Shown: positions 19,531-47,346 of the stretch, piece after piece | How the letters are laid out: each line of letters opens with the position of its first letter | How positions within the stretch are numbered: the first letter of the stretch is position 1 | NCBI RefSeq assembly: GCF_058153355.1 | Contig: NZ_CM177019.1 | Length of the DNA: 64,000 nucleotides | Direction: 5' to 3' (one strand) | The notes under the pieces: model-generated | The model's database searches: none | Told to the model about the DNA's origin: nothing | Seen by the model: the letters and a program-made list of their open reading frames with translations, nothing else | Made by a program: the position numbers and the translations under genes

Positions 19531-20544
<1,014 letters not shown>

Positions 20545-20569
20545 TTGATTAGCGGATAATAAAAAACCG

Positions 20570-20581
20570 GAGCACAGACTC
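20570..20581. repeat. Target-site duplication (left) of the IS4 insertion
   Basis: gagcacagactc directly abuts the IS4 left end; identical 12-mer at 22008-22019. Confidence 0.7.
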
Positions 20582-22007
20582 TAATGCCAGTCAGTTAAGC
20601 AACTGACTGGCTCTTTTTCGGGGCTGTGGGGTATTTCCAGGGCCTCTCCTTTACCACTCTCGGGAAGGCCCTTTCCCTTCTTGTCGGTAATTTCACAAGT
20701 TGTCCCATACTTGCAAGATCGCGCATCAGCTCCGGTATACGTCCCGGTGAAGCGCCCTGCAATGTCATCAGCATTCTCATCACCATTCCGCATGATTCTG
20801 AGAAACTCAGTTGATTCGGCCAGTAACCTTTCAGATGTTCCGCCATTTTAATCATCTGATATCTCACCAGATTATAAGCCAGTAAGACACCCCACAGCTC
20901 TTGCTCCACAAGCTCCGGCTTTTTACTTCTCAGCGTCAGCCTGCTCAGTTGCATCGTCTGTTTTATCTCCCTGTATCCCAGTTCGATTTCCCAGCGATGA
21001 CTGTACAGATCCGCCATTTCTCCTCCGGGGAAGCGCATGGCGTCCGTCATCGACGTCAGCAGATGGCAGACTTTTCCTTTGCGCGTCACGGTCAGCAGGC
21101 GGGCTGTCACTTCATTTCCCAGTCCCGGCCACTTTTTTCGTGCCTGCGGGCTGGTTTTCAGCTTCACCAGATGATCGCCTTTACCCAGTTTTCTGATCTC
21201 TTCATATTGCGCTCCCTTTCTGAGAGGTATCATCCAGTGGCGGTGTTCTCCCGCCAGGCTCCAGGCATTTAACAGTCCCAGTGAGTAATAACCTTTATCC
21301 ATTAACGTCAGAGTGTTATCGCCGGTTTGTTCTATAAGTTGCTCAGCAAGCTCATTTTCGCTGTTCTTCATCGTGCCGAAGGCTGCAGCCGTCAGCAGAT
21401 GGCTGGTCAGTTCCATCTGGCAGACCATTTTGACCTGCGGGTAGAGCGCCGGGTTCCCGGCATGTGTCTGGCGGGGGAAGGCTGCATCGTTCTCTGGTGT
21501 ATCCGGTGTGCGCCAGAACACACCATCGATGGCCAGCAGGGTCAGGCCGCACCAGTGCGGATGCGGCGTGGCGTTATGCCAGAGCTGCGCTGTTTTCGTG
21601 AACACGCGGCGGACAGCCTCACTTCCCAGGCGCTGGCGGGCCTGAATAACGGCACTGGGGGCAACGAAGGGGCGATTGCCCGGCAGCATGATGTCCAGGC
21701 GATTCACAATCTGGTGAAGAGGTTCTTTACGCTCAAGCGCCATGCCAACAATACACCAGACCATCATTTCGAGGGGAAGACGGCGCTTGCGTAGCGTTAC
21801 AGTACCTGATTCGGCAAGGCAACGAGAGATGAGTTCGGGGTCGAGGTAATCCCCCAGAGAAGTCAGTGGGTTACGCAGAGAATCGTAACGGGATACCAGA
21901 TCAAGAGCCTGTCCAATGTGCATAAAAAAATCCGGAAACAAGTGAGCGTTTCCGGATTCTTACACAGCCACTGGATCGGTCAACTGATCCTTAACTGATC
22001 GGCATTA
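20582..22007 (-). mobile_element. IS4 insertion sequence, complete (1426 bp)
   Basis: Imperfect terminal inverted repeats taatgccagtcagttaagc (left) and ccttaactgatcggcatta (right); single transposase ORF; flanked by a 12-bp direct repeat; length matches IS4. Confidence 0.9.
20595..21923 (-). CDS. insG: IS4 transposase (InsG-like, DDE family)
   Basis: Canonical start [32 protein letters not shown] inside ORF-track frame 20595-21941; 442 aa. Confidence 0.9.
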
Positions 22008-22019
22008 GAGCACAGACTC
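22008..22019. repeat. Target-site duplication (right) of the IS4 insertion
   Basis: gagcacagactc directly abuts the IS4 right end; identical to 20570-20581. Confidence 0.7.
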
Positions 22020-22044
22020 CGGTTTTTTGTTTTGAGCGCACGAC

Positions 22045-30823: not shown

Positions 30824-31615
30824 ATGGGCCTTATGAACGCATTTGATTCGCAAACCGAAGATTCTTCACCTGCAATTGGTCGCAACTTGCGCAGCCGCCC
30901 GCTGGCGCGTAAAAAACTCTCCGAAATGGTGGAAGAAGAGCTGGAACAGATGATCCGCCGTCGTGAATTTGGCGAAGGTGAACAATTACCGTCTGAACGC
31001 GAACTGATGGCGTTCTTTAACGTCGGGCGTCCTTCGGTGCGTGAAGCGCTGGCAGCGTTAAAACGCAAAGGTCTGGTGCAAATAAACAACGGCGAACGCG
31101 CCCGCGTCTCACGTCCTTCTGCGGACACCATCATCGGCGAGCTTTCCGGCATGGCGAAAGATTTCCTTTCTCATCCTGGCGGGATTGCCCATTTCGAACA
31201 ATTACGTCTGTTCTTTGAATCCAGCCTGGTGCGCTATGCGGCTGAACACGCCACCGATGAGCAAATCGATTTGCTGGCAAAAGCACTGGAAATCAACAGT
31301 CAGTCGCTTGATAACAACGCGGCATTCATTCGTTCAGACGTTGATTTCCACCGCGTGCTGGCGGAGATCCCCGGTAACCCAATCTTCATGGCGATCCACG
31401 TTGCCCTGCTCGACTGGCTGATCGCCGCACGTCCAACCGTGGCTGATCAGGCTCTGCACGAGCATAACAACGTTAGCTATCAACAGCATATTGCGATCGT
31501 TGATGCGATCCGCCGCCACGATCCCGATGAAGCCGATCGCGCGTTGCAATCGCATCTCAACAGCGTCTCTGCTACCTGGCACGCCTTCGGTCAGACCACC
31601 AACAAAAAGAAATAA
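30824..31615 (+). CDS. nanR: GntR/FadR-family repressor of sialic acid catabolism NanR
   Basis: 263-aa [47 protein letters not shown]... Confidence 0.9.
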
Positions 31616-31678
31616 TGCCACTTTAGTGAAGCAGATCGCATTATAAGCTTTCTGTATGGGGTGTTGCTTAATTGATCT

Positions 31679-31701
31679 GGTATAACAGGTATAAAGGTAT
31701 A
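31679..31701. promoter_or_regulatory. NanR operator: three direct GGTATA repeats in the nanA promoter
   Basis: ggtataacaggtataaaggtata about 35 bp upstream of the nanA start; matches the published Nan-box GGTATA repeat. Confidence 0.7.
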
Positions 31702-31736
31702 TCGTTTATCAGACAAGCATCACTTCAGAGGTATTT

Positions 31737-32630
31737 ATGGCAACGAATTTACGTGGCGTAATGGCCGCACTCCTGACTCCTTTTGATCAACAACAAGCAC
31801 TGGATAAAGCGAGTCTGCGTCGCCTGGTTCAGTTCAATATTCAGCAGGGCATCGACGGTTTATACGTGGGTGGTTCTACCGGCGAAGCCTTTGTACAAAG
31901 CCTTTCCGAGCGTGAACAGGTACTGGAAATCGTCGCCGAAGAGGCGAAAGGCAAGATTAAACTCATCGCTCATGTAGGTTGCGTCAGCACTGCTGAAAGC
32001 CAACAGCTTGCATCTTCAGCCAAACGTTATGGCTTCGATGCCGTCTCCGCCGTCACGCCGTTCTACTACCCTTTCAGCTTTGAAGAACACTGCGATCACT
32101 ATCGGGCAATTATTGATTCGGCGGATGGGTTGCCGATGGTGGTGTACAACATTCCGGCGTTAAGCGGCGTTAAACTGACCCTGGATCAGATTAACACTCT
32201 GGTTACGTTGCCTGGTGTCGGCGCGCTGAAACAGACCTCTGGCGATCTCTATCAGATGGAGCAGATCCGTCGTGAACATCCGGATCTGGTGCTCTATAAC
32301 GGTTACGACGAAATCTTTGCTTCTGGTTTGTTGGCGGGCGCTGATGGTGGTATCGGTAGTACTTACAACATTATGGGCTGGCGTTATCAGGGTATCGTGA
32401 AGGCGCTGAAAGAAGGCGATATCCAGACCGCGCAGAAGCTGCAAACCGAATGTAATAAAGTCATTGATTTACTGATCAAAACGGGCGTATTCCGCGGCCT
32501 GAAAACGGTCCTGCACTATATGGATGTCGTTTCTGTGCCGCTGTGCCGCAAACCGTTTGGTCCGGTCGATGAAAAATATCTGCCAGAACTGAAGGCGCTA
32601 GCCCAGCAGTTGATGCAAGAGCGCGGGTGA
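31737..32630 (+). CDS. nanA: N-acetylneuraminate lyase
   Basis: 297-aa [53 protein letters not shown]... Confidence 0.95.
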
Positions 32631-32738
32631 GTTGTTTCCCCTCGCTCGCCCCTACCGGGTGAGGGGAAATAAACGCATCTGTACCCTACAATTTTTATAC
32701 CAAAGCGTGTGGGCATCGCCCACCGCGGGAGACTCACA

Positions 32739-34229
32739 ATGAGTACTACAACCCAGAATATCCCGTGGTATCGCCATCTCAACCGCGCACAATGGCGCGC
32801 ATTTTCCGCTGCCTGGTTGGGATATCTGCTTGACGGTTTTGATTTCGTTTTAATCGCCCTGGTACTCACCGAAGTACAAGGTGAATTCGGGCTGACGACG
32901 GTACAGGCGGCAAGTCTGATCTCCGCAGCCTTTATCTCTCGCTGGTTCGGCGGCCTGATGCTTGGCGCTATGGGCGACCGCTACGGGCGTCGTCTGGCAA
33001 TGGTTACCAGTATCGTTCTCTTCTCGGCCGGGACGCTGGCCTGCGGCTTTGCGCCAGGCTACATCACCATGTTTATTGCTCGTCTGGTCATCGGCATGGG
33101 GATGGCGGGAGAATACGGCTCCAGCGCCACCTATGTCATTGAACGCTGGCCAAAACATCTGCGTAACAAAGCCAGTGGCTTTCTGATTTCCGGCTTCTCG
33201 GTGGGTGCCGTCGTTGCCGCTCAGGTCTACAGCCTGGTGGTTCCGGTCTGGGGCTGGCGAGCGCTGTTCTTTATCGGCATTTTGCCAATCATCTTTGCTC
33301 TCTGGCTGCGTAAAAACATTCCGGAAGCGGAAGACTGGAAAGAGAAACACGCAGGTAAAGCACCAGTACGCACGATGGTAGACATTCTTTACCGTGGTGA
33401 ACATCGCATTGCCAATATCGTAATGACGCTGGCGGCGGCTACTGCGCTGTGGTTCTGCTTCGCTGGTAACCTGCAAAATGCCGCAATCGTCGCTGTTCTC
33501 GGGCTGTTATGTGCCGCAATCTTTATCAGCTTTATGGTTCAGAGTACGGGCAAACGCTGGCCAACGGGCGTAATGCTGATGGTGGTTGTGTTATTTGCTT
33601 TCCTCTACTCATGGCCGATTCAGGCACTGCTGCCAACGTATCTGAAAACCGATCTTGCTTATGACCCGCATACTGTTGCCAATGTGCTGTTCTTTAGTGG
33701 CTTTGGTGCGGCGGTGGGGTGCTGCGTCGGTGGCTTCCTCGGTGACTGGCTGGGAACCCGCAAAGCGTACGTTTGCAGTCTGCTGGCCTCACAGCTGCTG
33801 ATTATTCCGGTATTTGCGATTGGTGGCGCAAACGTCTGGGTGCTCGGTCTGTTACTGTTCTTCCAGCAAATGCTTGGACAAGGGATCGCCGGGATCTTAC
33901 CGAAACTGATTGGCGGTTATTTCGATACCGACCAGCGTGCAGCGGGCCTGGGCTTTACCTACAACGTTGGCGCATTGGGCGGCGCACTGGCCCCAATCAT
34001 CGGCGCGTTGATCGCTCAACGCCTGGATCTGGGTACTGCGCTGGCATCGCTTTCGTTTAGCCTGACGTTCGTGGTGATCCTGCTGATTGGGCTGGATATG
34101 CCTTCTCGCGTTCAGCGTTGGTTGCGCCCGGAAGCGTTGCGTACTCATGACGCTATCGACGGCAAACCATTTAGCGGTGCCGTGCCGTTTGGCAGCGCTA
34201 AAAACGATTTAGTCAAAACCAAAAGTTAA
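32739..34229 (+). CDS. nanT: Sialic acid:H+ symporter NanT (MFS)
   Basis: Canonical start [22 protein letters not shown] inside ORF-track frame 32709-34229; 496 aa. Confidence 0.9.
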
Positions 34230-34275
34230 TCCTGTTGCCCGGTCTTCTACCGGGCCTTTCGCTAAGGGAAGATGT

Positions 34276-34961
34276 ATGTCGTTACTTGCACAACTGGATC
34301 AAAAAATCGCTGCTAACGGTGGCCTGATTGTCTCCTGCCAGCCGGTTCCGGACAGCCCACTCGATAAACCTGAAATCGTCGCCGCCATGGCATTAGCGGC
34401 AGAGCAGGCGGGAGCGGTTGCCATTCGTATTGAAGGTGTGACAAATCTGCAAGCCACGCGTGCGGTGGTGAGTGTGCCGATTATCGGGATTGTGAAACGC
34501 GATCTAGAGGATTCTCCGGTACGCATCACGGCATATATTGAAGATGTCGATGCGCTGGCGCAGGCAGGCGCGGATATCATCGCGATTGACGGCACCGACC
34601 GACCGCGTCCGGTGCCTGTTGAAACGCTACTGGCACGTATCCACCATCACGGTTTACTGGCGATGACCGACTGCTCAACGCCGGAAGACGGCCTGGCATG
34701 CCAAAAGCTGGGAGCCGAAATTATTGGCACTACGCTTTCTGGCTATACCACACCTGAAACGCCAGAAGAGCCGGATCTGGCGCTGGTGAAAACGTTGAGC
34801 GACGCCGGATGTCGGGTGATTGCCGAAGGGCGTTACAACTCGCCTGCTCAGGCGGCGGATGCGATGCGCCACGGTGCATGGGCGGTAACGGTCGGTTCTG
34901 CTATCACGCGTCTTGAACACATTTGTCAGTGGTACAACACAGCGATGAAAAAGGCGGTGCT

Positions 34962-34965
<4 letters not shown>
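34276..34965 (+). CDS. nanE: N-acetylmannosamine-6-phosphate 2-epimerase
   Basis: 229-aa [32 protein letters not shown]... Confidence 0.9.
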
Positions 34966-36298
<1,333 letters not shown>

Positions 36299-36318
36299 AA
36301 CTTAGTTCGTTTTAAAGA

Positions 36319-36346
36319 TTCTGCAGACACTGTCTGCAGAATTCGA
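36319..36346. repeat. Palindrome of the CAGAC-N3-GTCTG family (copy A), just 3' of yhcH
   Basis: ttctgcagacactgtctgcagaattc; related to the three palindromes inside yhcG. Confidence 0.6.
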
Positions 36347-36367
36347 AACCGCTGAAATTAACGGCGT

Positions 36368-37234
36368 CTATAGCCTTCCTCTAGCACCGCCTGTGTTCGA
36401 ACGAGTTCGGCGGTGGAAAAACAGCAGATCGACACGAAACCAGTTGTCATCAATGCGTAACCTTCGCTGCCGACCAACAAAGGCAAAATCATCCCCAAGT
36501 TCCAGCATTAAATCCATCAGGTGATTGATCAGCGCCTCCTCAAAATCGGATTCTGAGTATTCATCTTTCAATTCCAGAAATTCGAGCACAAAGGGATCGC
36601 GTATCGCCTGTTGCGGAAGAATATGCGTCTCGGCAGGAGCGTGTTGTTGCAGCATGGCTGATTTGTCATGTGACAGTAGTGTTCGCTCATAAAATTGGGT
36701 CGCAATTTGCCGCTCTAGCTGGCGGACAGACCAACCACAGCGGAGCGCCTCTTTTTCATAAAAGCTGCGGGCGTCAGCGTTTTTAACGGAAAGTAGACGG
36801 ACGTAGGTGGACCAAGGCAGGGGGAACGATTTGGCAGACAGCGTCTGCCAAATCTTTGCCGATGGGAATTCTGCAGACGGTGTCTGCGGAATTCCCAATG
36901 GTGTTAATTCGCCAGACACTGTCTGGCGAATTTCAACATGTTGAAAAAAGAGGTAAAAAAGCCTCATTTGGCGTAAGTTTTTTGCAGAGAACCCACGCTT
37001 ATACCTTAGACTTAAATCCTTTGATAGTCGCTTGATTAGCTGCGCACCATACGCAGCTCTGGCCTCGCCACCTTGTTCAAATTCGACAATTCGTCGGCCA
37101 ATTTCCCAGTACGTCGCGGTCATCAGCGCGTTAACGCTACGTACCGTTTCCGTTCGGGCGCTATCGACCAGATGAATAATGCCGTCGTGGATTTGCTGGT
37201 AGCCTGCTGTGGTTCCTTCTGAGAGCGATTCCAT
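36368..37234 (-). pseudogene. yhcG: yhcG-like DUF1016 / PD-(D/E)XK nuclease-family gene, apparently truncated near the 3' end
   Basis: 288-aa ORF MESLSEGTTAGYQQIHDGIIHLVDSARTE... runs to ...RIDDNWFRVDLLFFHRR then gives 12 unrelated residues and a stop; the following ExK nuclease motif is absent; K-12 YhcG recalled as about 375 aa. Confidence 0.5.
36830..36932. repeat. Three tandem perfect palindromes (CAGAC-N3-GTCTG cores) inside the yhcG coding sequence
   Basis: tttggcagacagcgtctgccaaa (36830-36852), gaattctgcagacggtgtctgcggaattc (36866-36894), aattcgccagacactgtctggcgaatt (36906-36932); each encodes I-x-Q-T-x-S-x-E/K on the minus strand. Confidence 0.7.
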
Positions 37235-37417
37235 TATCTTTCCCTTTATATGGCGCAGTGTTGAATAATGGAATCAGCTATACGCCGGGCATCTGCCGGT
37301 AACAATCCAGATGTGCGTATTACATTGGTTTTCTTCAGATTATGCGAGGCGCTTTCCAGAACGAAAGGAGAATTTCAGCGCCGACTCTTTTCTGAGGAGG
37401 CGGCGCTGGGACAGAGC

Positions 37418-38848
<1,431 letters not shown>

Positions 38849-41800
38849 TTACTGCGCCTGCACGCGCAACTCTGCTGCGCTACGACTACGGTGACCCAGC
38901 AGTGCTTTTACATCACTGGACTTCGGTTTAACCAGCGCGAATTTCGTGGCGAAGGTTGACCAGTTCGCCAGAATCTCTTCACCGCGCTGGGAACCGGTAT
39001 GCTGCACATGCTCGGTGATAAGACCACGCAGATGCTCTTCATGGATCGCCAAATCGTCAACGCTTAAGACCTCGACCAGTTCCGGGTTAACGCGTTTGCG
39101 GAAATCGCCGCTTTCATCGAGAACGTAAGCGAAGCCGCCGGTCATGCCCGCGCCGAAGTTAACGCCGGTTTTACCCAGAATACAGACAATACCGCCCGTC
39201 ATATATTCACAGCCGTTGTCGCCAATGCCTTCTACCACGGTGATAGCACCGGAGTTCCGCACGCCGAAACGTTCACCCGCGCGGCCTGCGGCATACAGAC
39301 GACCACCGGTCGCGCCATACAGGCAGGTGTTGCCGATAATGCTTGCTTCATGGCTGCGGAAGGCGGAACCAACCGGAGGACGAATGGCGATTAAGCCGCC
39401 CGCCATGCCTTTACCGACATAGTCGTTGGCATCACCGGTCAGGTACAGTTCCACGCCGCCCGCGTTCCACACACCGAAGCTCTGGCCTGCGGTGCCGTTG
39501 AAGTACGCTTTGATCGGATCGGCTGCCAGACCCTGATCGCCGTGCGTCTGAGCGATATAGCCTGAAAGCGACGCGCCGACAGAACGGTCGGTGTTGCGAA
39601 TATCGAACCAGAAGGTTTTGCTCTGACGCTCATCGACAAACGGTTTTGCCTGTTGCAGCAACTGCGCGTTCAGCAGGCCATTATCAAACGGCGGGTTGTT
39701 TTCGGTACAGTAGAGCGCCTTACCTGGATGCGGCTCGGCAGTCTCCAGCAGCTTCGACAGCGCCAGTTTCTGCTGTTTGGCGGTGAAACCGTCCAGCTCT
39801 TTGAGCAGGTCGGTACGGCCAATCAGATCCACCAGGCGCGTTACGCCCAGTTGCGCCATCAGCTCGCGGGTTTCACGGGCGATAAACTCAAAGTAATTGG
39901 TCACTTTGAACGGCAGGCCGTGATAGTGATTCTTACGCAGCTTGTCATCCTGAGTTGCTACACCGGTGGCGCAGTTGTTCAGATGGCAGATTCGCAGGTA
40001 TTTACAGCCGAGCGCCACCATCGGGCCAGTGCCGAAGCCGAAGCTTTCTGCGCCGAGAATCGCCGCTTTGATGATATCGACACCTGTTTTCAGGCCGCCA
40101 TCGACCTGCAAACGGATCTTATGACGCAAGCCGTTGGCAACCAGCGCCTGTTGTGTTTCAACAAGCCCCAGTTCCCACGGGCAGCCTGCGTATTTCACCG
40201 ATGAAAGCGGACTTGCGCCGGTGCCGCCGTCATAGCCTGCGATGGTGATCAAGTCCGCATAAGCTTTCGCCACGCCAGTCGCGATGGTGCCAACGCCCGG
40301 TTCAGAAACCAGCTTCACGGAGATCATCGCTTTCGGGTTAACCTGCTTGAGGTCGAAAATGAGCTGCGCTAAGTCCTCGATAGAGTAGATATCATGGTGC
40401 GGCGGCGGAGAGATCAGCGTCACTCCGGGCACCGAATAGCGCAGTTTGGCGATGTAAGGAGTGACTTTATCGCCCGGCAACTGACCGCCTTCGCCCGGTT
40501 TCGCGCCCTGGGCGACTTTAATCTGAATGACGTCAGCATTGACCAGGTACGCCGGAGTAACGCCGAAGCGACCAGAAGCCACCTGCTTGATGCGCGACAC
40601 TTTGTTAGTGCCGTAGCGCGCCGGATCTTCACCACCTTCACCGGAGTTCGAGTTACCGCCGATGCTATTCATCGCTTCCGCCAGCGCCTCGTGGGCTTCC
40701 GGGCTTAACGCGCCGATAGACATCGCAGCGGTATCGAAGCGTTTAAACAGTTCGCTTGCCGGTTCAACATCGGCAATGTTGACTGCGTTTTCACCCGGCG
40801 TAATTGCCAGCAGATCGCGCAGCGTGGTTGCCGGACGCTCATTAACCAGCTTCGCGTATTCCTGATAGTCGCTGTACTCGCCGCTTTGTACCGCCTGTTG
40901 CAGTGTGCGCACGACGTCCGGGTTGTAGGCGTGGTATTCGCCACCGTGCACGTATTTCAGCAAGCCGCCCTGGCTGATGGGCTTACGCGCCAGCCAGGCA
41001 CGTTTCGACAGATTCAGCAGATCCTGCTGGAAGTCTTCAAAGCTTGCCCCACCAATGCGGCTAACCGCGCCCTGGAAGCACAGGCCCACTACATCATCGT
41101 GCAGACCGACCGCTTCAAACAGTTTCGAGCCGCGGTAAGACGCGATGGTGGAGATGCCCATTTTGGACATGATTTTGTACAAGCCTTTGTTGATGCCGTT
41201 ACGGTAGTTGAGCATCACGGTACGATAATCTTTGGCAATCGCGTGGGTGTCTACCAGGCGGCCCAGCGTTTCATAGGCCAGGTACGGATAAATAGCCGTC
41301 GCGCCGAAGCCCAGCAACACGGCGAAGTGGTGCGGGTCGCGGGCGCTGGCGGTTTCGACGATGATATTGGCATCGCAACGCAGGCTTTGATCGACCAGAC
41401 GAGTCTGGATCGCGCCAACCGCCATCAGAGCCGGAACCGGCAGGCGATCTTTAGCGATATTCCGGTCAGAAAGCACCAGCAGCACGGTGCCGCTACGCAC
41501 CATCTGCTCTGCTTTGTCGCACAGCTCTTTGACCGTCGCTTCGAGCGTGGTTTTAGTGACGTCAAAGGTGATATCCAGCGTATTTGCGCGGTAGTGCTCC
41601 TCTTTCATCGTCGTGAGCTGTTTGAAATCGGAGTAGAGCAGAATCGGCGATTTAAAGCTTAAACGGTGCGCCTGGCCTTCTGCTTCACAGAAGACGTTCA
41701 TTTCACGCCCGATGCTGGTGGCGAGCGACATAACATGCGCTTCACGTAGCGGGTCGATTGGCGGGTTAGTGACCTGCGCAAACTGCTGGCGGAAGTAGTC

Positions 41801-43402
41801 GTAAATAATGCGCGGCTGGCTGGAGAGCACGGCGAATGGGGTATCATCGCCCATCGAACCGACGGCTTCCTGACCGTTTTCACCCAGTACGCGAATTACG
41901 GAGTCCAGCTCTTCCGCGCTGTAGTTAAACTGTTTCTGGTAGCTGGCAAGTGTGTCGTCGTCCAGTTCGCGGCTACCCACTTCTTCATCGGGCAGATCTT
42001 CAAACGGTACCAGACGGCGGACGTTTTTCTCCATCCACTCTTTATATGGATGGCGGCTTTTCAGATCGTCATCGGTTTCTGCCGAGTGCAGAATACGCCC
42101 ACTGCGGGTGTCGATAACCATTAGTTCGCCTGGCCCCACGCGGCCTTTTTCGACTACTTCGTCAGGCTGATAATCCCAGATACCGACTTCAGAGGCGCAG
42201 GTGATGAGCTTATCTTTGGTGATGACGTAGCGCGCCGGACGCAGACCGTTACGGTCGAGGTTACAGGCAGCAAAACGACCATCGGACATTACGATGCCCG
42301 CCGGGCCATCCCACGGCTCCATATGCATGGAGTTAAAGTCGAAGAACGCGCGCAGCTCCGGGTCCATATCCGGGTTGTTCTGCCAGGCGGGTGGCACTAA
42401 CAGACGCATGGCGCGGATGATATCCATCCCGCCCGCCAGCAGCAGTTCCAGCATGTTATCCATGGAACTGGAGTCAGAGCCGGTTTCGTTGACGAACGGC
42501 GCGGCGTCGTGCAGGTCAGGGATCAGCGGTGTCTGGAATTTATAGGTACGCGCTCGCGCCCATTGGCGGTTACCGGTGATGGTGTTGATTTCACCGTTAT
42601 GCGCCAGGTAGCGGAACGGCTGCGCCAGCGGCCAGCGCGGTACGGTATTAGTGGAGAAGCGCTGGTGGAACAGGCAGATGGCCGATTCCAGACGCAGGTC
42701 CGCGAGGTCCAGGTAGAAGCGCGGCAGATCCGCCGGCATACACAGACCTTTATAGATGTTCACCAGATTCGACAGGCTACAGACGTAGAAGTCTTTGTCA
42801 GCTTCGAGACGCTTTTCAATACGGCGGCGGGCGATAAACAGACGGCGCTCCATATCGCGCGGACGCCAACCTGCCGGGGCGTTCACAAAAATTTGCTCAA
42901 TGCGTGGCAGAGAGGAGAGGGCGATTTCACCCAGCACGCCTTCGTTAGTGGGGACATCACGCCAGCCGACAATCGACAACGTTTCGCGTTGCAGCTCTTC
43001 TTCAACGATGCGGCGTGCGGTCGCGGCGAGTTCAGGATCTTTATTCAGGAAAAGCATCCCGACGGCGTAGTTTTTCGCTAAACGCCAGCCTCGCTCCTGC
43101 GCAACAATGCGAAAAAAGCGATCCGGTTTTTGTAACAGCAAGCCGCAACCGTCACCGGTTTTACCATCGGCGAGAATCGCGCCACGGTGCTGCATGCGGG
43201 CCAGTGCGTGTATTGCAGTACGCACTACCTTGTGGCTAGGTTCGCCTTCTATGTGGGCGATCAGGCCGAAACCACAGTTATCCCTCTCAAGGGATTTATC
43301 GTACAACATATCGTGAACCTCCCCCAGGCTCTGCGGGAACCCCACTTCCGAACCGCTGCGCACGGGCACAGAAAGAGCGTGGCGACGGGGTTTGCGTTTC
43401 AT
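38849..43402 (-). CDS. gltB: Glutamate synthase (NADPH) large subunit
   Basis: ORF-track frame 38849-43417; start taken at [17 protein letters not shown] (1517 aa); propeptide precedes the [11 protein letters not shown] amidotransferase N-terminus. Confidence 0.93.
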
Positions 43403-43984
43403 ACGCGCGCCTCGCATTCGCCCCCTTGTTGTCCTTTTCGCATCGATTAATACGGTGAAGAGGGGATCTCAATTACTGCATAAATATGATGAGCAGGCTG
43501 CTCATCCAGAAAGCTTCCAGCGGATTTCCAACTTATCGGGAAAGCTGATACAGGTCAAATGGCAAGCTTATTGGTACAGAAATGTGCTTTAGCGCAAAAT
43601 TCTTTATTAATTTATTGAAATTAAAAAGGATTTGTTAATTAAGTTGAAAAGAGGCGTCGTTAGGGAAACAGTCAATTCCTGACTGTCATAAAGGCGTGTT
43701 AACCCTTATCCTGCCTTGAACTGACGAGAAAGGCAGTATTTTATACTGCATTAATTGGTAATGACGTTTCATGCTACTGTTTTTTGCCTAAAATCCATAA
43801 GGAGATAAAAAAATCTGACACAAGATAAGCAAAAGTGATTTATGTGATTATGCATGAAATTTCGGTAATTTTGATTGATTATGCAATTGATAAAAGCAGG
43901 CTGGGACGATTGATCCAGGTCATCGCCGAATTGAGCTAAAAATGGCAGGCTTTGGCCTCTTTTCAAGGCGCGGTCTATCAGATT

Positions 43985-44914
43985 ATGCAGTTACAGAAAT
44001 TAGTCAATATGTTTGGTGGTGATCTCACCCGTCGTTATGGGCAAAAGGTGCATAAGCTGACGCTGCACGGCGGTTTTAGCTGCCCTAACCGTGACGGTAC
44101 CATCGGGCGTGGTGGCTGCACATTCTGTAATGTTGCCTCGTTTGCCGATGAAGCGCAGCAGCATCATTCCATTGCCGAGCAACTGGCGCACCAGGCGAAT
44201 TTAGTTAACCGCGCTAAACGCTATCTGGCCTACTTTCAGGCGTATACCAGCACCTTTGCGGAAGTTCAGGTGCTGCGTTCTATGTATCAGCAGGCGGTGA
44301 GCCAGGCCAATATTGTCGGTTTGTGTGTTGGTACCCGCCCGGACTGCGTGCCGGATGCGGTGCTGGATCTGCTTTGCGAATATAAGGACCAGGGCTACGA
44401 AGTGTGGCTGGAGCTGGGGCTACAAACCGCCCACGACAAAACGCTGCATCGCATCAATCGCGGTCATGATTTTGCCTGCTATCAGCGCACGACGCAGCTG
44501 GCGCGTGAGCGCGGGCTGAAGGTGTGTTCTCACTTAATTGTCGGCCTGCCTGGCGAAGGGCAGGCTGAATGTTTGCAAACGCTGGAGCGAGTGGTTGAAA
44601 CCGGCGTGGACGGCATAAAGCTGCATCCGCTACATATAGTAAAAGGCAGCATTATGGCGAAAGCCTGGGAAGCGGGGCGTTTGAACGGTATTGAACTGGA
44701 CGATTACACGCTCACTGCCGGAGAAATGATTCGCCATACGCCACCGGAAGTGATCTACCACCGCATTTCCGCCAGCGCCCGTCGCCCGACGCTGCTTGCT
44801 CCGCTGTGGTGCGAAAATCGATGGACGGGAATGGTCGAGCTGGATCGCTATCTGAATGAACATGGCGTACAGGGATCGGCGCTGGGACGTCCGTGGCTAC
44901 CTCCAACGGCGTAG
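43985..44914 (+). CDS. yhcC: Radical SAM protein YhcC
   Basis: Canonical start MQLQKLVNMFGGDLTRRYGQKVHKLTLHGGFSCPNRDGT inside ORF-track frame 43952-44914; CxxxCxxC-type cluster motif. Confidence 0.85.
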   Translation: MQLQKLVNMFGGDLTRRYGQKVHKLTLHGGFSCPNRDGTIGRGGCTFCNVASFADEAQQHHSIAEQLAHQANLVNRAKRYLAYFQAYTSTFAEVQVLRSMYQQAVSQANIVGLCVGTRPDCVPDAVLDLLCEYKDQGYEVWLELGLQTAHDKTLHRINRGHDFACYQRTTQLARERGLKVCSHLIVGLPGEGQAECLQTLERVVETGVDGIKLHPLHIVKGSIMAKAWEAGRLNGIELDDYTLTAGEMIRHTPPEVIYHRISASARRPTLLAPLWCENRWTGMVELDRYLNEHGVQGSALGRPWLPPTA

Positions 44915-45009
44915 GCCATTGAGGGGAATTCCGCATTTCTCACACAATTTATAACGTAACTGTCAGAATTGGGTATTATTGGGGCAGGTTGTCGTGAAGG
45001 AATTCCCTA

Positions 45010-47346
45010 ATGAAGCAAATTCGTCTGCTGGCGCAGTATTATGTTGACCTGATGATGAAGTTAGGTCTGGTGCGCTTCTCAATGTTGCTGGCGCTGGCCC
45101 TCGTCGTTCTTGCCATTGTGGTACAAATGGCAGTGACCATGGTGCTGCATGGTCAGGTCGAAAGCATTGATGTTATTCGTTCTATCTTCTTTGGTTTGCT
45201 GATTACGCCGTGGGCGGTCTACTTTCTATCGGTGGTCGTTGAGCAATTGGAGGAGTCACGACAACGTCTGTCACGGCTGGTGCAAAAACTGGAGGAGATG
45301 CGCGAGCGCGATTTGAGCCTCAACGTTCAGTTAAAAGATAATATTGCCCAGCTAAATCAGGAAATTGCCGTTCGTGAAAAAGCGGAAGCAGAACTGCAGG
45401 AAACCTTCGGCCAACTGAAAATTGAAATTAAAGAGCGCGAAGAGACACAAATTCAGCTCGAGCAGCAATCCTCATTCTTACGTTCCTTCCTTGATGCTTC
45501 ACCCGACCTGGTTTTTTATCGTAACGAAGATAAAGAGTTTTCCGGCTGTAACCGCGCGATGGAGCTGCTGACCGGAAAAAGCGAAAAACAACTGGTTCAT
45601 TTAAAACCTGCTGATGTTTACTCGCCGGAAGCTGCCGCGAAAGTTATTGAAACCGATGAAAAAGTATTTCGTCATAATGTGTCTCTGACCTATGAACAGT
45701 GGTTGGATTATCCCGACGGACGCAAAGCCTGCTTTGAAATCCGTAAAGTGCCGTACTATGACCGCGTGGGTAAACGTCACGGTTTAATGGGTTTTGGTCG
45801 CGACATTACCGAGCGTAAGCGGTATCAGGATGCGCTTGAACGCGCCAGCCGCGACAAAACGACGTTTATCTCCACCATCAGTCACGAATTGCGTACACCG
45901 CTGAACGGTATCGTCGGCCTGAGCCGCATTTTGCTGGATACTGAACTTACCGCTGAGCAGGAAAAATATCTCAAAACAATCCATGTTTCGGCCGTCACGC
46001 TGGGGAATATCTTCAACGATATTATTGACATGGATAAGATGGAGCGGCGCAAGGTCCAGCTTGATAATCAGCCAGTTGATTTCACCAGCTTCCTTGCCGA
46101 TCTGGAAAATCTCTCCGCATTGCAGGCGCAACAGAAAGGGTTGCGCTTTAATCTGGAACCGACGCTGCCATTACCGCATCAGGTCATTACTGATGGGACG
46201 CGTTTACGGCAGATCCTGTGGAACCTCATCAGTAACGCCGTCAAATTTACCCAGCAGGGCCAGGTTACCGTGCGCGTGCGCTACGATGAAGGCGATATGC
46301 TGCATTTTGAAGTGGAAGACTCTGGTATCGGCATTCCGCAGGATGAGCTGGATAAAATCTTCGCCATGTATTACCAGGTGAAAGACAGTCATGGCGGTAA
46401 ACCTGCCACTGGCACCGGTATTGGTCTGGCCGTTTCTCGTCGTCTGGCGAAAAATATGGGCGGCGATATTACGGTTACCAGCGAACAGGGCAAAGGTTCA
46501 ACCTTTACGTTGACGATCCACGCACCGTCGGTAGCAGAAGAGGTTGATGATGCGTTTGATGAAGACGATATGCCTTTACCGGCGCTGAATGTGCTGCTGG
46601 TGGAAGACATTGAACTGAACGTGATTGTCGCACGCTCTGTGCTGGAAAAATTAGGTAACAGCGTTGATGTCGCCATGACCGGCAAGGCGGCGCTGGAGAT
46701 GTTTAAACCGGGCGAATACGACCTGGTGTTGCTGGATATTCAGTTGCCAGATATGACCGGGCTGGATATCTCTCGTGAACTGACGAAGCGTTATCCGCGC
46801 GAGGATTTACCGCCGCTGGTGGCCTTAACCGCTAACGTGCTGAAAGACAAACAAGAGTACCTCAATGCTGGAATGGATGATGTGCTGAGTAAGCCGCTTT
46901 CTGTTCCGGCGCTAACCGCGATGATCAAGAAATTCTGGGATACCCAGGATGATGAGGAGAGTACGGTGACGACAGAAGAGAACAGTAAATCAGAAGCATT
47001 GCTCGATATTCCCATGCTGGAACAGTATCTCGAACTTGTAGGACCGAAGCTGATCACCGATGGGTTAGCGGTGTTTGAGAAGATGATGCCGGGATATGTC
47101 AGCGTGCTGGAGTCGAATCTGACGGCGCAGGATAAAAAAGGCATTGTTGAGGAAGGACATAAAATTAAAGGTGCGGCGGGGTCAGTGGGGTTACGCCATC
47201 TGCAACAGCTGGGTCAGCAAATTCAGTCTCCTGACCTTCCAGCCTGGGAAGATAACGTCGGTGAATGGATTGAAGAGATGAAAGAAGAGTGGCGTCACGA
47301 CGTAGAAGTACTGAAAGCGTGGGTGGCAAAAGCTACTAAAAAATGA
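45010..47346 (+). CDS. arcB: Aerobic respiration control sensor kinase ArcB (tripartite hybrid kinase)
   Basis: 778-aa ORF with two TM helices, PAS, HisKA (SHELRTPLNGI), receiver and HPt domains. Confidence 0.95.
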   Translation: MKQIRLLAQYYVDLMMKLGLVRFSMLLALALVVLAIVVQMAVTMVLHGQVESIDVIRSIFFGLLITPWAVYFLSVVVEQLEESRQRLSRLVQKLEEMRERDLSLNVQLKDNIAQLNQEIAVREKAEAELQETFGQLKIEIKEREETQIQLEQQSSFLRSFLDASPDLVFYRNEDKEFSGCNRAMELLTGKSEKQLVHLKPADVYSPEAAAKVIETDEKVFRHNVSLTYEQWLDYPDGRKACFEIRKVPYYDRVGKRHGLMGFGRDITERKRYQDALERASRDKTTFISTISHELRTPLNGIVGLSRILLDTELTAEQEKYLKTIHVSAVTLGNIFNDIIDMDKMERRKVQLDNQPVDFTSFLADLENLSALQAQQKGLRFNLEPTLPLPHQVITDGTRLRQILWNLISNAVKFTQQGQVTVRVRYDEGDMLHFEVEDSGIGIPQDELDKIFAMYYQVKDSHGGKPATGTGIGLAVSRRLAKNMGGDITVTSEQGKGSTFTLTIHAPSVAEEVDDAFDEDDMPLPALNVLLVEDIELNVIVARSVLEKLGNSVDVAMTGKAALEMFKPGEYDLVLLDIQLPDMTGLDISRELTKRYPREDLPPLVALTANVLKDKQEYLNAGMDDVLSKPLSVPALTAMIKKFWDTQDDEESTVTTEENSKSEALLDIPMLEQYLELVGPKLITDGLAVFEKMMPGYVSVLESNLTAQDKKGIVEEGHKIKGAAGSVGLRHLQQLGQQIQSPDLPAWEDNVGEWIEEMKEEWRHDVEVLKAWVAKATKK

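What the first reader, a model, noticed from the sequence alone, without database searches (positions are those of the whole stretch)
37235..37417. gltD lies directly next to yhcG: gltF and the yhcADEF fimbrial genes are absent
Only 183 bp separate the gltD stop (37418) from the yhcG start (37234). In K-12 as I recall it, gltF and the yhcA-yhcD-yhcE-yhcF chaperone-usher cluster (with an IS5 in yhcE) sit between them. No remnant of gltF or fimbrial genes is visible here, so this looks like a strain-variable boundary or deletion at the end of the gltBD operon.
Basis: partly seen in the sequence, partly recalled or inferred. Interest (0 to 1): 0.4.

Follow-up and report, generated by a model that had tools for sequence, protein, structure and literature searches.

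The report
Ancestral gltD–yhcG junction, not a deletion
The 183-base gap between gltD and yhcG is the original arrangement shared by most E. coli and related species, and it is strain K-12 that carries an inserted fimbrial gene island there, so the finding is ordinary.

Summary
gltD (37418-38836, minus strand) and yhcG (start 37234, minus strand) are 183 bp apart, and no GltF, YhcA, YhcD, YhcE or YhcF coding sequence exists anywhere in the 64-kb window.

The "deletion" reading is wrong. The same junction occurs in 3139 of 5426 complete E. coli genomes. Only 1148 carry gltF-yhcA.

The whole 183-bp spacer, including the hairpin next to gltD, is conserved in four other Escherichia lineages and recognisably in Pseudocitrobacter. 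gltD-yhcG adjacency also holds in Citrobacter, Kluyvera, Superficieibacter and Salmonella arizonae. K-12's 7.1-kb gltF-yhcADEF block is AT-rich (44.8% GC against 53-57% in the flanks) and replaces 61 nt of that spacer. It is therefore an insertion. Its sporadic distribution is already published.

- The window's yhcG is a pseudogene. A private 251-bp deletion removes the second half of its nuclease domain.
- yhcG carries 27-29-nt hairpin-forming palindromes inside its coding sequence. They are conserved with compensatory changes across bacterial phyla.

Extra non-coding copies of these palindromes sit at the end points of other E. coli structural variants of this locus. I found no published description of the hairpins in the sources I could search.

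The parts
38849..43417 (-). gltB, glutamate synthase large subunit (ORF from the first ATG; the annotated start in relatives is internal)
37418..38836 (-). gltD, glutamate synthase small subunit, intact at 472 aa; stop codon at 37418-37420
37235..37417 (.). Complete ancestral gltD-yhcG intergenic spacer, 183 bp
   Evidence: Identical to E. coli 2020CK-00188. Conserved in Escherichia sp. E1V33, E. whittamii, and strains E69 and SCPM-O-B-8794, and recognisable in Pseudocitrobacter. The same junction is found in 3139 of 5426 E. coli genomes.
37376..37408 (-). GC-rich hairpin CAGCGCCG...CGGCGCUG, 12 nt after the gltD stop; inferred gltBD terminator. It lies in the 61 nt that K-12 has lost to the island.
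   Evidence: RNA fold -23.2 kcal/mol, z -2.95. Conserved across Escherichia. Not called by the simple terminator scan because the U tract is weak.
37235..37362 (-). yhcG-proximal part of the spacer, inferred to be the yhcG promoter and 5' UTR. This is the only part that K-12 retains, in a diverged form.
   Evidence: Alignments; blastn. A transcription start for yhcG and a divergent ncRNA are reported for K-12 (PMC7967276). No consensus sigma-70 match.
36358..37234 (-). yhcG pseudogene (DUF1016 / PD-(D/E)XK nuclease; PADLOC candidate defence gene PDC-S02). A 251-bp deletion lies between 36407 and 36408, with a frameshift and a new stop at 36368-36370.
   Evidence: The deletion junction is absent from all 5426 complete E. 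coli genomes.
36829..36932 (-). Three tandem hairpin-forming palindromes inside the yhcG coding sequence, 39 bp apart, with cores at 36835-36847, 36874-36886 and 36913-36925. They encode WQTLSAKS, PQTPSAEF and RQTVSGEL.
   Evidence: 8 strand matches against 0.04 expected.: -64.3 kcal/mol, z -9.96; conservation and covariation across phyla.
36317..36343 (.). Fourth, non-coding copy of the palindrome, between the convergent nanQ and yhcG
   Evidence: -16.9 kcal/mol, z -5.78. Present in the other Escherichia species loci.
35834..36298 (+). nanQ (yhcH), last gene of the nan operon and the other flank of the variable locus

Best explanation
The 183-bp interval is the intact, ancestral intergenic spacer between the end of the gltBD operon and the candidate defence nuclease gene yhcG. 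Nothing has been deleted there.

Shown:
- The spacer is conserved end to end in other Escherichia species.
- gltD-yhcG adjacency holds across several enterobacterial genera.
- K-12's gltF-yhcA-yhcD-yhcE-yhcF block is a 7086-bp low-GC insertion that starts immediately after the gltD stop codon and replaces the 61 nt of spacer next to gltD.
- That block is present in about one fifth of complete E. coli genomes.

Inferred:
- The gltD-proximal hairpin (37376-37408) terminates gltBD transcription.
- The conserved 128 bp next to yhcG carries the yhcG promoter.
- The "gltBDF operon" is therefore a feature of island-bearing strains only.

The only lesion at this locus in the window is a private 251-bp deletion inside yhcG. 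It removes the (D/E)xK half of the nuclease domain, so the nuclease is inferred to be inactive.
For: - Junction counts: the ancestral spacer plus gltD end occurs in one piece in 3139 of 5426 genomes. The full gltD-spacer-yhcG arrangement occurs in 2419. gltF-yhcA occurs in 1148, of which 1146 are >=99% identical.
- Outgroups with gltB-gltD-yhcG(-nanQ): E. whittamii, Escherichia sp. E1V33, two ~92%-identical Escherichia lineages, Pseudocitrobacter, three Citrobacter species, two Kluyvera, Superficieibacter and Salmonella arizonae.
- The spacer alignment is conserved, including the hairpin K-12 lacks.
- Island GC is 44.8% against 53-57% in the flanks, and the gltD-gltF intergenic region is 32%.
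- K-12 and BL21 gltD are 99.7% identical up to the stop codon. They then diverge completely, K-12 into the island and BL21 into the ancestral spacer.
- tblastn for the five island proteins is negative in the window.
- Literature: the yhc locus is sporadic and was found only in phylogroup A (PMC3559732; PMC5216030).
Against: - Only 64 kb of the source genome is visible, so a copy of the cluster elsewhere cannot be excluded.
- The counts come from RefSeq complete genomes, which over-represent laboratory and clinical lineages.
- E. albertii and E. fergusonii were not among the 80 loci returned.
- The terminator and promoter roles of the spacer are inferred. The consensus scans found neither.
- A divergent chaperone-usher cluster sits at the same site in another enterobacterium (L008). 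The site may therefore have a longer history of gain and loss than a single insertion.
Confidence: 0.9

Rival explanations
1. Secondary loss. The window's lineage once carried the gltF-yhcADEF island and lost it when homologous recombination replaced the region with an island-free allele. That would restore a perfect ancestral spacer and leave no scar.
For: The region is mosaic. The window is 99.6% identical to strain 2020CK-00188 on the nan side but 97.9% on the yhcG/glt side, so recombination has acted here. About 947 genomes lack both the island and yhcG yet keep the K-12-type 14 bp plus palindrome next to gltD. One reading is that the island was lost from those genomes.
Against: There is no positive trace of the island. 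The spacer matches the outgroup state over all 183 bp. The island is a minority state of near-zero diversity (1146 of 1148 at >=99%) and is reported only from phylogroup A (PMC5216030).
Confidence: 0.06
2. Relocation. The fimbrial cluster is present in this genome but at another chromosomal site.
For: Nothing positive. It simply cannot be excluded with a 64-kb window.
Against: In the 1148 genomes that have gltF-yhcA, the median is one place per genome and every listed hit lies at the gltF/yhcA annotation of this locus. The number of genomes with the K-12-type gltD junction but no gltD-nanQ adjacency (about 1292) matches the number with the island.
Confidence: 0.02
3. Assembly artefact. The island was collapsed or dropped during assembly.
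For: None.
Against: The identical junction exists in thousands of independently finished genomes and in other species.
Confidence: 0.01

Closest known systems
Yhc (beta-class) chaperone-usher fimbrial locus gltF-yhcADEF of E. coli K-12, described as a sporadic locus (Wurpel et al. 2013, PMC3559732; Del Canto et al. 2017, PMC5216030)
   Same: This is the same presence/absence polymorphism at the same chromosomal position. The window is an island-free genome, like most E. coli.
   Different: Wurpel et al. left open whether Yhc is an ancient cluster lost by most strains or a recent gain. The outgroup spacer conservation and the low island GC found here argue for gain.
The gltBDF operon concept for E. 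coli K-12 (from my own knowledge: Castano et al. 1992; Goss et al. 2001 found gltF dispensable and absent from Klebsiella aerogenes)
   Same: gltB and gltD are intact and adjacent, as in K-12.
   Different: No gltF follows gltD. Instead a conserved hairpin follows the stop codon, and then the yhcG promoter region.
yhcG marker of the LSPA-6 lineage typing scheme for E. coli O157:H7 (PMC3514354)
   Same: It is a length polymorphism inside yhcG.
   Different: In O157:H7 strain Z903 the difference is an in-frame loss of exactly two 39-bp hairpin units, 78 bp in all. The window has a different, frame-shifting 251-bp deletion in the nuclease domain. That the LSPA-6 amplicon covers the hairpin repeats is my inference, not checked against the primers.
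Structured palindromic elements recognised as hairpins by proteins: REP elements and their RAYT transposases, integron attC sites, IS200/IS605 ends, and in-frame Rickettsia palindromic elements
   Same: The yhcG palindromes combine conserved stem positions (ATT...CAGAC) with covarying positions, occur in tandem, sit in frame inside a coding sequence, and coincide with rearrangement end points.
   Different: They are confined to yhcG and its immediate flanks: four copies in 64 kb, all at yhcG. They do not match any Rfam family. No dedicated recombinase is evident. The neighbouring protein is a PD-(D/E)XK nuclease, not an HUH or tyrosine enzyme.

Membership tests
Yhc beta-class chaperone-usher fimbrial cluster (gltF-yhcADEF) | Usher YhcD and chaperone YhcA genes between gltD and yhcG | tested here: not met
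   tblastn of K-12 YhcA and YhcD against the whole window gives no hit at E<=1e-3. Only 183 bp separate gltD and yhcG.
Yhc beta-class chaperone-usher fimbrial cluster (gltF-yhcADEF) | DUF1120 subunit genes gltF and yhcF | tested here: not met
   No tblastn hit in the window.
gltBD glutamate synthase operon | Intact adjacent gltB and gltD | tested here: met
   ORFs at 38849-43417 and 37418-38836. GltD is 99-99.6% identical to other Escherichia GltD proteins.
gltBDF operon (K-12 sense) | gltF transcribed after gltD | tested here: not met
   gltF is absent. A conserved hairpin follows the gltD stop.
Horizontally acquired island (applied to the K-12 block, to decide polarity) | Absent from the orthologous site in sister species | tested here: met
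   Four other Escherichia lineages and seven other enterobacterial species have gltD next to yhcG.
Horizontally acquired island (applied to the K-12 block, to decide polarity) | Base composition deviating from the flanks | tested here: met
   44.8% GC against 53-57% in the flanks; the intergenic region next to gltD is 32%.
Horizontally acquired island (applied to the K-12 block, to decide polarity) | Integrase, tRNA target or flanking direct repeats | tested here: not met
   No integrase gene is annotated in the block. No second copy of the spacer was found in K-12 by blastn with word size 7. In the unrelated locus L008, by contrast, a spacer segment (roughly 90 bp, judged by eye from the two printed flanks) recurs on both sides of a divergent CU island.
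YhcG / DUF1016 PD-(D/E)XK nuclease (Pfam PF17761 + PF06250; PADLOC PDC-S02) | DUF1016_N domain | tested here: met
   E 7e-44, in two stretches split by the hairpin-encoded repeats.
YhcG / DUF1016 PD-(D/E)XK nuclease (Pfam PF17761 + PF06250; PADLOC PDC-S02) | Complete YhcG_C nuclease domain with the (D/E)xK motif | tested here: not met
   Only profile positions 1-71 of 157 remain. The reading frame is lost after FRVDLLFFHRR, before the VDLK motif. The intact relative matches positions 1-155.
Intrinsic (rho-independent) terminator, for the hairpin at 37376-37408 | GC-rich stem-loop followed by a U tract | tested here: inconclusive
   The stem-loop is stable and conserved. The tail AAAUUCUCCUUUCGUU is only moderately U-rich and the pattern scan did not call it.
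Rfam RNA families, for the yhcG hairpins | Match to a curated covariance model | tested here: not met
   Best hits have E 0.8-8 to unrelated miRNA models, far below their gathering scores.

The most novel reading that the evidence does not exclude
The 27-29-nt palindromes embedded one to four times in the coding sequence of YhcG (PDC-S02) nuclease genes may be a previously undescribed structured nucleic-acid element, conserved from Enterobacteriaceae to Acidobacteria, Cyanobacteria and Planctomycetes. They may do more than encode a linker peptide.

They could be hairpin or cruciform sites that the Holliday-junction-resolvase-like YhcG nuclease, or host recombination, acts on. Two possible roles are control of the gene's own expression and promotion of its exchange.

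In E. coli, non-coding copies and the in-gene copies mark the end points of the other structural variants between gltD and nanQ:
- loss of island plus yhcG, leaving one palindrome;
- replacement of the yhcG 3' part in the BL21 type;
- the palindrome at the gltD end of the K-12 island;
- loss of two repeat units in O157.

Selection on base pairing is well supported. The functional link to rearrangement or regulation is speculative.
Probability: 0.3. Interest if true: 0.7.

Novelty: already known. Interest (0 to 1): 0.2.

Why it matters
For the finding itself, not much. It reminds annotators that K-12 is the exception at this locus. The "gltBDF operon" and the Yhc fimbrial cluster belong to a minority of E. 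coli, so their absence should not be scored as gene loss. The analysis also addresses a polarity question that the 2013 fimbrial survey left open: the cluster was gained, not lost.

The by-product may matter more. A hairpin that covaries across phyla sits inside the coding sequence of a widespread, uncharacterised candidate anti-phage nuclease, and it coincides with rearrangement end points. That gives a concrete handle for experiments on what YhcG / PDC-S02 does.

Tried and rejected
- Deletion scars in the 183-bp spacer: none. It is colinear with and identical to strain 2020CK-00188 and conserved in other species.
- Any complete E. coli genome sharing the 251-bp yhcG deletion: a 40-nt junction query found nothing. 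The first attempt with a 161-nt query could not discriminate, because two-piece hits ranked equally.
- Consensus promoter and terminator scans of 36250-37480: no promoter-like site, and one terminator-like site inside yhcG that is no better than the shuffles.
- Rfam scan of the locus: only chance-level miRNA hits.
- REP/BIME-like dispersed repeat as an explanation for the palindromes: rejected, because all four copies in 64 kb are at yhcG.
- A peptide motif alone as the explanation for the palindromes: rejected for three reasons. Ser is TCT in 111 of 115 QTxS motifs against 15% background in the same genes. Synonymous changes in codon 2 are matched by Ala/Gly changes five codons later. Variant cores such as GAGAC/GTCTC and TCGAC/GTCGA stay complementary.
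- RNA versus DNA hairpin: G-U pairs are not clearly favoured over other mismatches. Left undecided.
- The 101-aa "transposase" ORF of the BL21-type variant: no Pfam, NCBIfam, PADLOC or PHROG match. It is single copy per genome, so it is not an active IS.
- A second copy of spacer sequence at the gltD end of the K-12 island, as seen in L008: not found.
- Identity of the source strain: no complete E. coli genome exceeds 98.5% over 10 kb. Left unresolved.

Full report
**Observation**

The window runs in the opposite orientation to the K-12 map. From left to right it carries nanR, nanA, nanT, nanE, nanK and nanQ on the plus strand (30824-36298). It then carries yhcG, gltD and gltB on the minus strand.

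gltD is the 472-codon ORF at 37418-38836, and yhcG starts at 37234. The interval 37235-37417 is exactly 183 bp. In a K-12 record the order is gltD, gltF, yhcA, yhcD, yhcE split by IS5, yhcF, yhcG. tblastn with those five K-12 proteins finds nothing in the whole 64-kb window.

**What differs from K-12**

Aligning the window, its closest E. coli relative and K-12, together with blastn of the K-12 block, gives three results:
- Homology to K-12 on the gltD side stops at the stop codon.
- Homology on the yhcG side resumes 61 nt into the ancestral spacer.
- K-12 therefore has 7086 bp (L002 13311-20396) where the window has 61 nt, reckoned on the ancestral-spacer alignment (alone places the boundary at about 55 bp).

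The spacer part that K-12 retains next to yhcG is unusually diverged. It is about 74-82% identical to other Enterobacteriaceae spacers over 211 bp.

**Frequencies**

All counts are from 5426 complete RefSeq E. coli genomes.

| State | Genomes |
|---|---|
| Ancestral-type spacer joined to the end of gltD | 3139 |
| - of these, gltD-spacer-yhcG contiguous as in the window | 2419 |
| - of these, yhcG 3' part replaced by a 476-bp single-copy segment (BL21 type) | about 717 |
| K-12-type sequence next to gltD (14 bp, then a 29-bp palindrome) | 2239 |
| - of these, gltD and nanQ only 67 bp apart, with neither island nor yhcG | 947 |
| gltF-yhcA present (1146 of them >=99% identical to K-12) | 1148 |

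The reference layout is therefore the minority state. These figures describe a biased collection, not natural frequencies.

**Polarity**

A scan of one genome per species with intact YhcG, followed by tblastn mapping, shows gltB-gltD-yhcG in 12 outgroup loci:
- E. whittamii;
- Escherichia sp. E1V33;
- two lineages labelled E. coli that are only about 92% identical to the window;
- Pseudocitrobacter vendiensis;
- Citrobacter koseri, C. amalonaticus and C. gillenii;
- two Kluyvera;
- Superficieibacter;
- Salmonella enterica subsp. arizonae.

nanQ follows yhcG, immediately or after about 2.8 kb, in all of these except the two Kluyvera loci, where it was not detected.

The spacer alignment shows all 183 bp conserved among the Escherichia lineages and recognisably in Pseudocitrobacter. 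That includes the hairpin next to gltD, which K-12 lacks.

The K-12 block has 44.8% GC, against 53-57% for its flanks, and its gltD-proximal intergenic region has 32%. K-12 and BL21 have gltD alleles 99.7% identical up to the stop codon. Beyond it they diverge entirely, one into the island and the other into the ancestral spacer.

Together these results make the window's state ancestral and K-12's an insertion.

The literature already calls Yhc a sporadic, under-represented fimbrial type and left the polarity open (PMC3559732). A later survey found the locus only in phylogroup A strains (PMC5216030). A residual possibility is that the window's lineage had the island and lost it by allelic replacement. 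It cannot be excluded, but nothing supports it.

**How the spacer probably works (inferred)**

Twelve nucleotides after the gltD stop lies a conserved stem-loop at 37376-37408. It folds at -23.2 kcal/mol with z -2.95, and it is the likely gltBD terminator. Its U tract is weak, and the pattern scan did not call it.

The remaining 128 bp, conserved as far as Pseudocitrobacter and partly Citrobacter, should hold the yhcG promoter and leader. In K-12, transcription starts for yhcG and a divergent ncRNA have been mapped in the corresponding region (PMC7967276).

**What is actually broken here**

The window's yhcG lacks 251 bp that both K-12 and the closest relative have. The junction lies between 36407 and 36408. 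The ORF shifts frame after residue 276-279 and ends at 36368.

Pfam still finds DUF1016_N, but only positions 1-71 of 157 of the YhcG_C PD-(D/E)XK domain. The VDLK motif is gone. No complete E. coli genome shares this junction. At most one base of microhomology flanks it.

Intact YhcG matches the PADLOC candidate single-gene defence family PDC-S02 at E 9e-136. It was predicted long ago to be a Holliday-junction-resolvase-like nuclease (PMC1189080). I found no experimental characterisation.

**Palindromes**

Inspecting the locus for scars turned up four palindromes of the form ATTnnnCAGAC-N3-GTCTGnnnAAT. All are at yhcG. Three lie inside the coding sequence, 39 bp apart, with cores at 36835, 36874 and 36913. 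One lies between nanQ and yhcG at 36317-36343. That is eight strand matches where 0.04 are expected. The three in-gene units fold at -64.3 kcal/mol, z -9.96.

They coincide with variant end points elsewhere in E. coli:
- The 67-bp gltD-nanQ junction consists of the nanQ-proximal flank, one palindrome and the 14 bp that K-12 has next to gltD.
- K-12 has such a palindrome 14 bp after gltD, at the end of its island.
- The BL21-type replacement ends exactly at the base of an in-gene hairpin.
- O157:H7 strain Z903 lacks exactly two 39-bp units, in frame.

**Conservation of the palindromes across phyla**

YhcG homologues 55-67% identical to the E. coli protein occur in Beta- and Deltaproteobacteria, Acidobacteria, Cyanobacteria, Planctomycetes and others. 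About 70 of the 80 loci have the exact CAGAC-N3-GTCTG core at the same place in the gene, in one to four copies. Stems are mostly 11-13 bp.

Four loci that lack this core have complementary variants there, such as GAGAC/GTCTC and TCGAC/GTCGA.

On 97 distinct units, 91.7% of cells pair. The covariation score is 0.301 against 0.096 +/- 0.009 in shuffles, with 0 of 500 shuffles reaching it. Three pairs each show three to six pair types.

When the units are defined by the peptide QTxS, independently of the DNA, two codon biases appear:
- Ser is TCT in 111 of 115 motifs, against 15% of other Ser codons in the same genes.
- Gln is CAG in 112 of 115, against 58%.

Base pairing is therefore under selection. 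Whether the hairpin acts in RNA or in DNA is undecided. No Rfam family matches. I found no description of the element in the papers I searched.

**Verdict**

The finding is real but ordinary. The window shows the ancestral, majority arrangement, and the variable presence of the Yhc island is already documented.

The deletion interpretation is rejected. The overlooked yhcG pseudogene and the conserved in-gene hairpins are the more interesting content of this locus. The hairpins deserve an independent follow-up.

Noticed in passing
window 36358-37234, junction between 36407 and 36408: yhcG is a pseudogene. A 251-bp deletion, private with respect to 5426 complete E. coli genomes, removes the second half of the PD-(D/E)XK domain and shifts the frame.
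   Followed up: yes
window 36829-36932 and 36317-36343; loci L005-L084: Hairpin-forming palindromes (ATTnnnCAGAC-N3-GTCTGnnnAAT) sit inside the yhcG coding sequence in 1-4 tandem 39-bp units. They are conserved across phyla, with compensatory changes and strongly biased synonymous codons. Escherichia species also have a non-coding copy just downstream of the gene.
   Followed up: partly
L004 11936-12002; L003 8530-9010; L002 about 20345-20375; L085 about 960-1000: Other E. coli structural variants of the gltD-nanQ locus have end points at these palindromes. They are gltD-nanQ adjacency with one palindrome (947 genomes), BL21-type replacement of the yhcG 3' part (about 717-726 genomes), the gltD end of the K-12 island, and loss of two repeat units in O157:H7.
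   Followed up: partly
window about 20545-22044 (ORF 20595-21941, minus strand): An IS4-family transposase gene (Nterm_IS4 plus DDE_Tnp_1) lies between mdh and degS. From my own knowledge, these two genes are adjacent in K-12.
   Followed up: partly
L008 3997-10000 (Enterobacteriaceae bacterium MGYG-HGUT-00110): A divergent chaperone-usher cluster lies between gltD and yhcG in another genus (YhcA 44%, YhcD 38%, and two DUF1120 subunits at 24-29% identity). A segment of the spacer (roughly 90 bp, judged by eye from the printed sequence) recurs on both sides of it. The same spacer has therefore received fimbrial islands more than once, or has held one for a long time.
   Followed up: partly
L010 9660-9770 and 11059-11168 (Citrobacter gillenii): Spacer plus yhcG is flanked by a 111-bp direct repeat of the gltD 3' end (94% identical). 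This is the pattern expected after single-crossover integration of a circular gltD'-spacer-yhcG fragment.
   Followed up: partly
window 33300-41000 compared with L001: Identity to the closest strain (2020CK-00188) is 99.6% on the nan side and drops to 97.9% from yhcG into gltBD, which suggests a recombination boundary near yhcG. No complete E. coli genome exceeds 98.5% over 37235-47234, so the source lineage is not represented in that collection.
   Followed up: partly
L001 3059-4186 (intact YhcG): YhcG matches the PADLOC candidate defence family PDC-S02 (E 9e-136) and PHROG 22762. Homologues about 60% identical are spread across distant phyla, which implies frequent horizontal transfer.
   Followed up: partly
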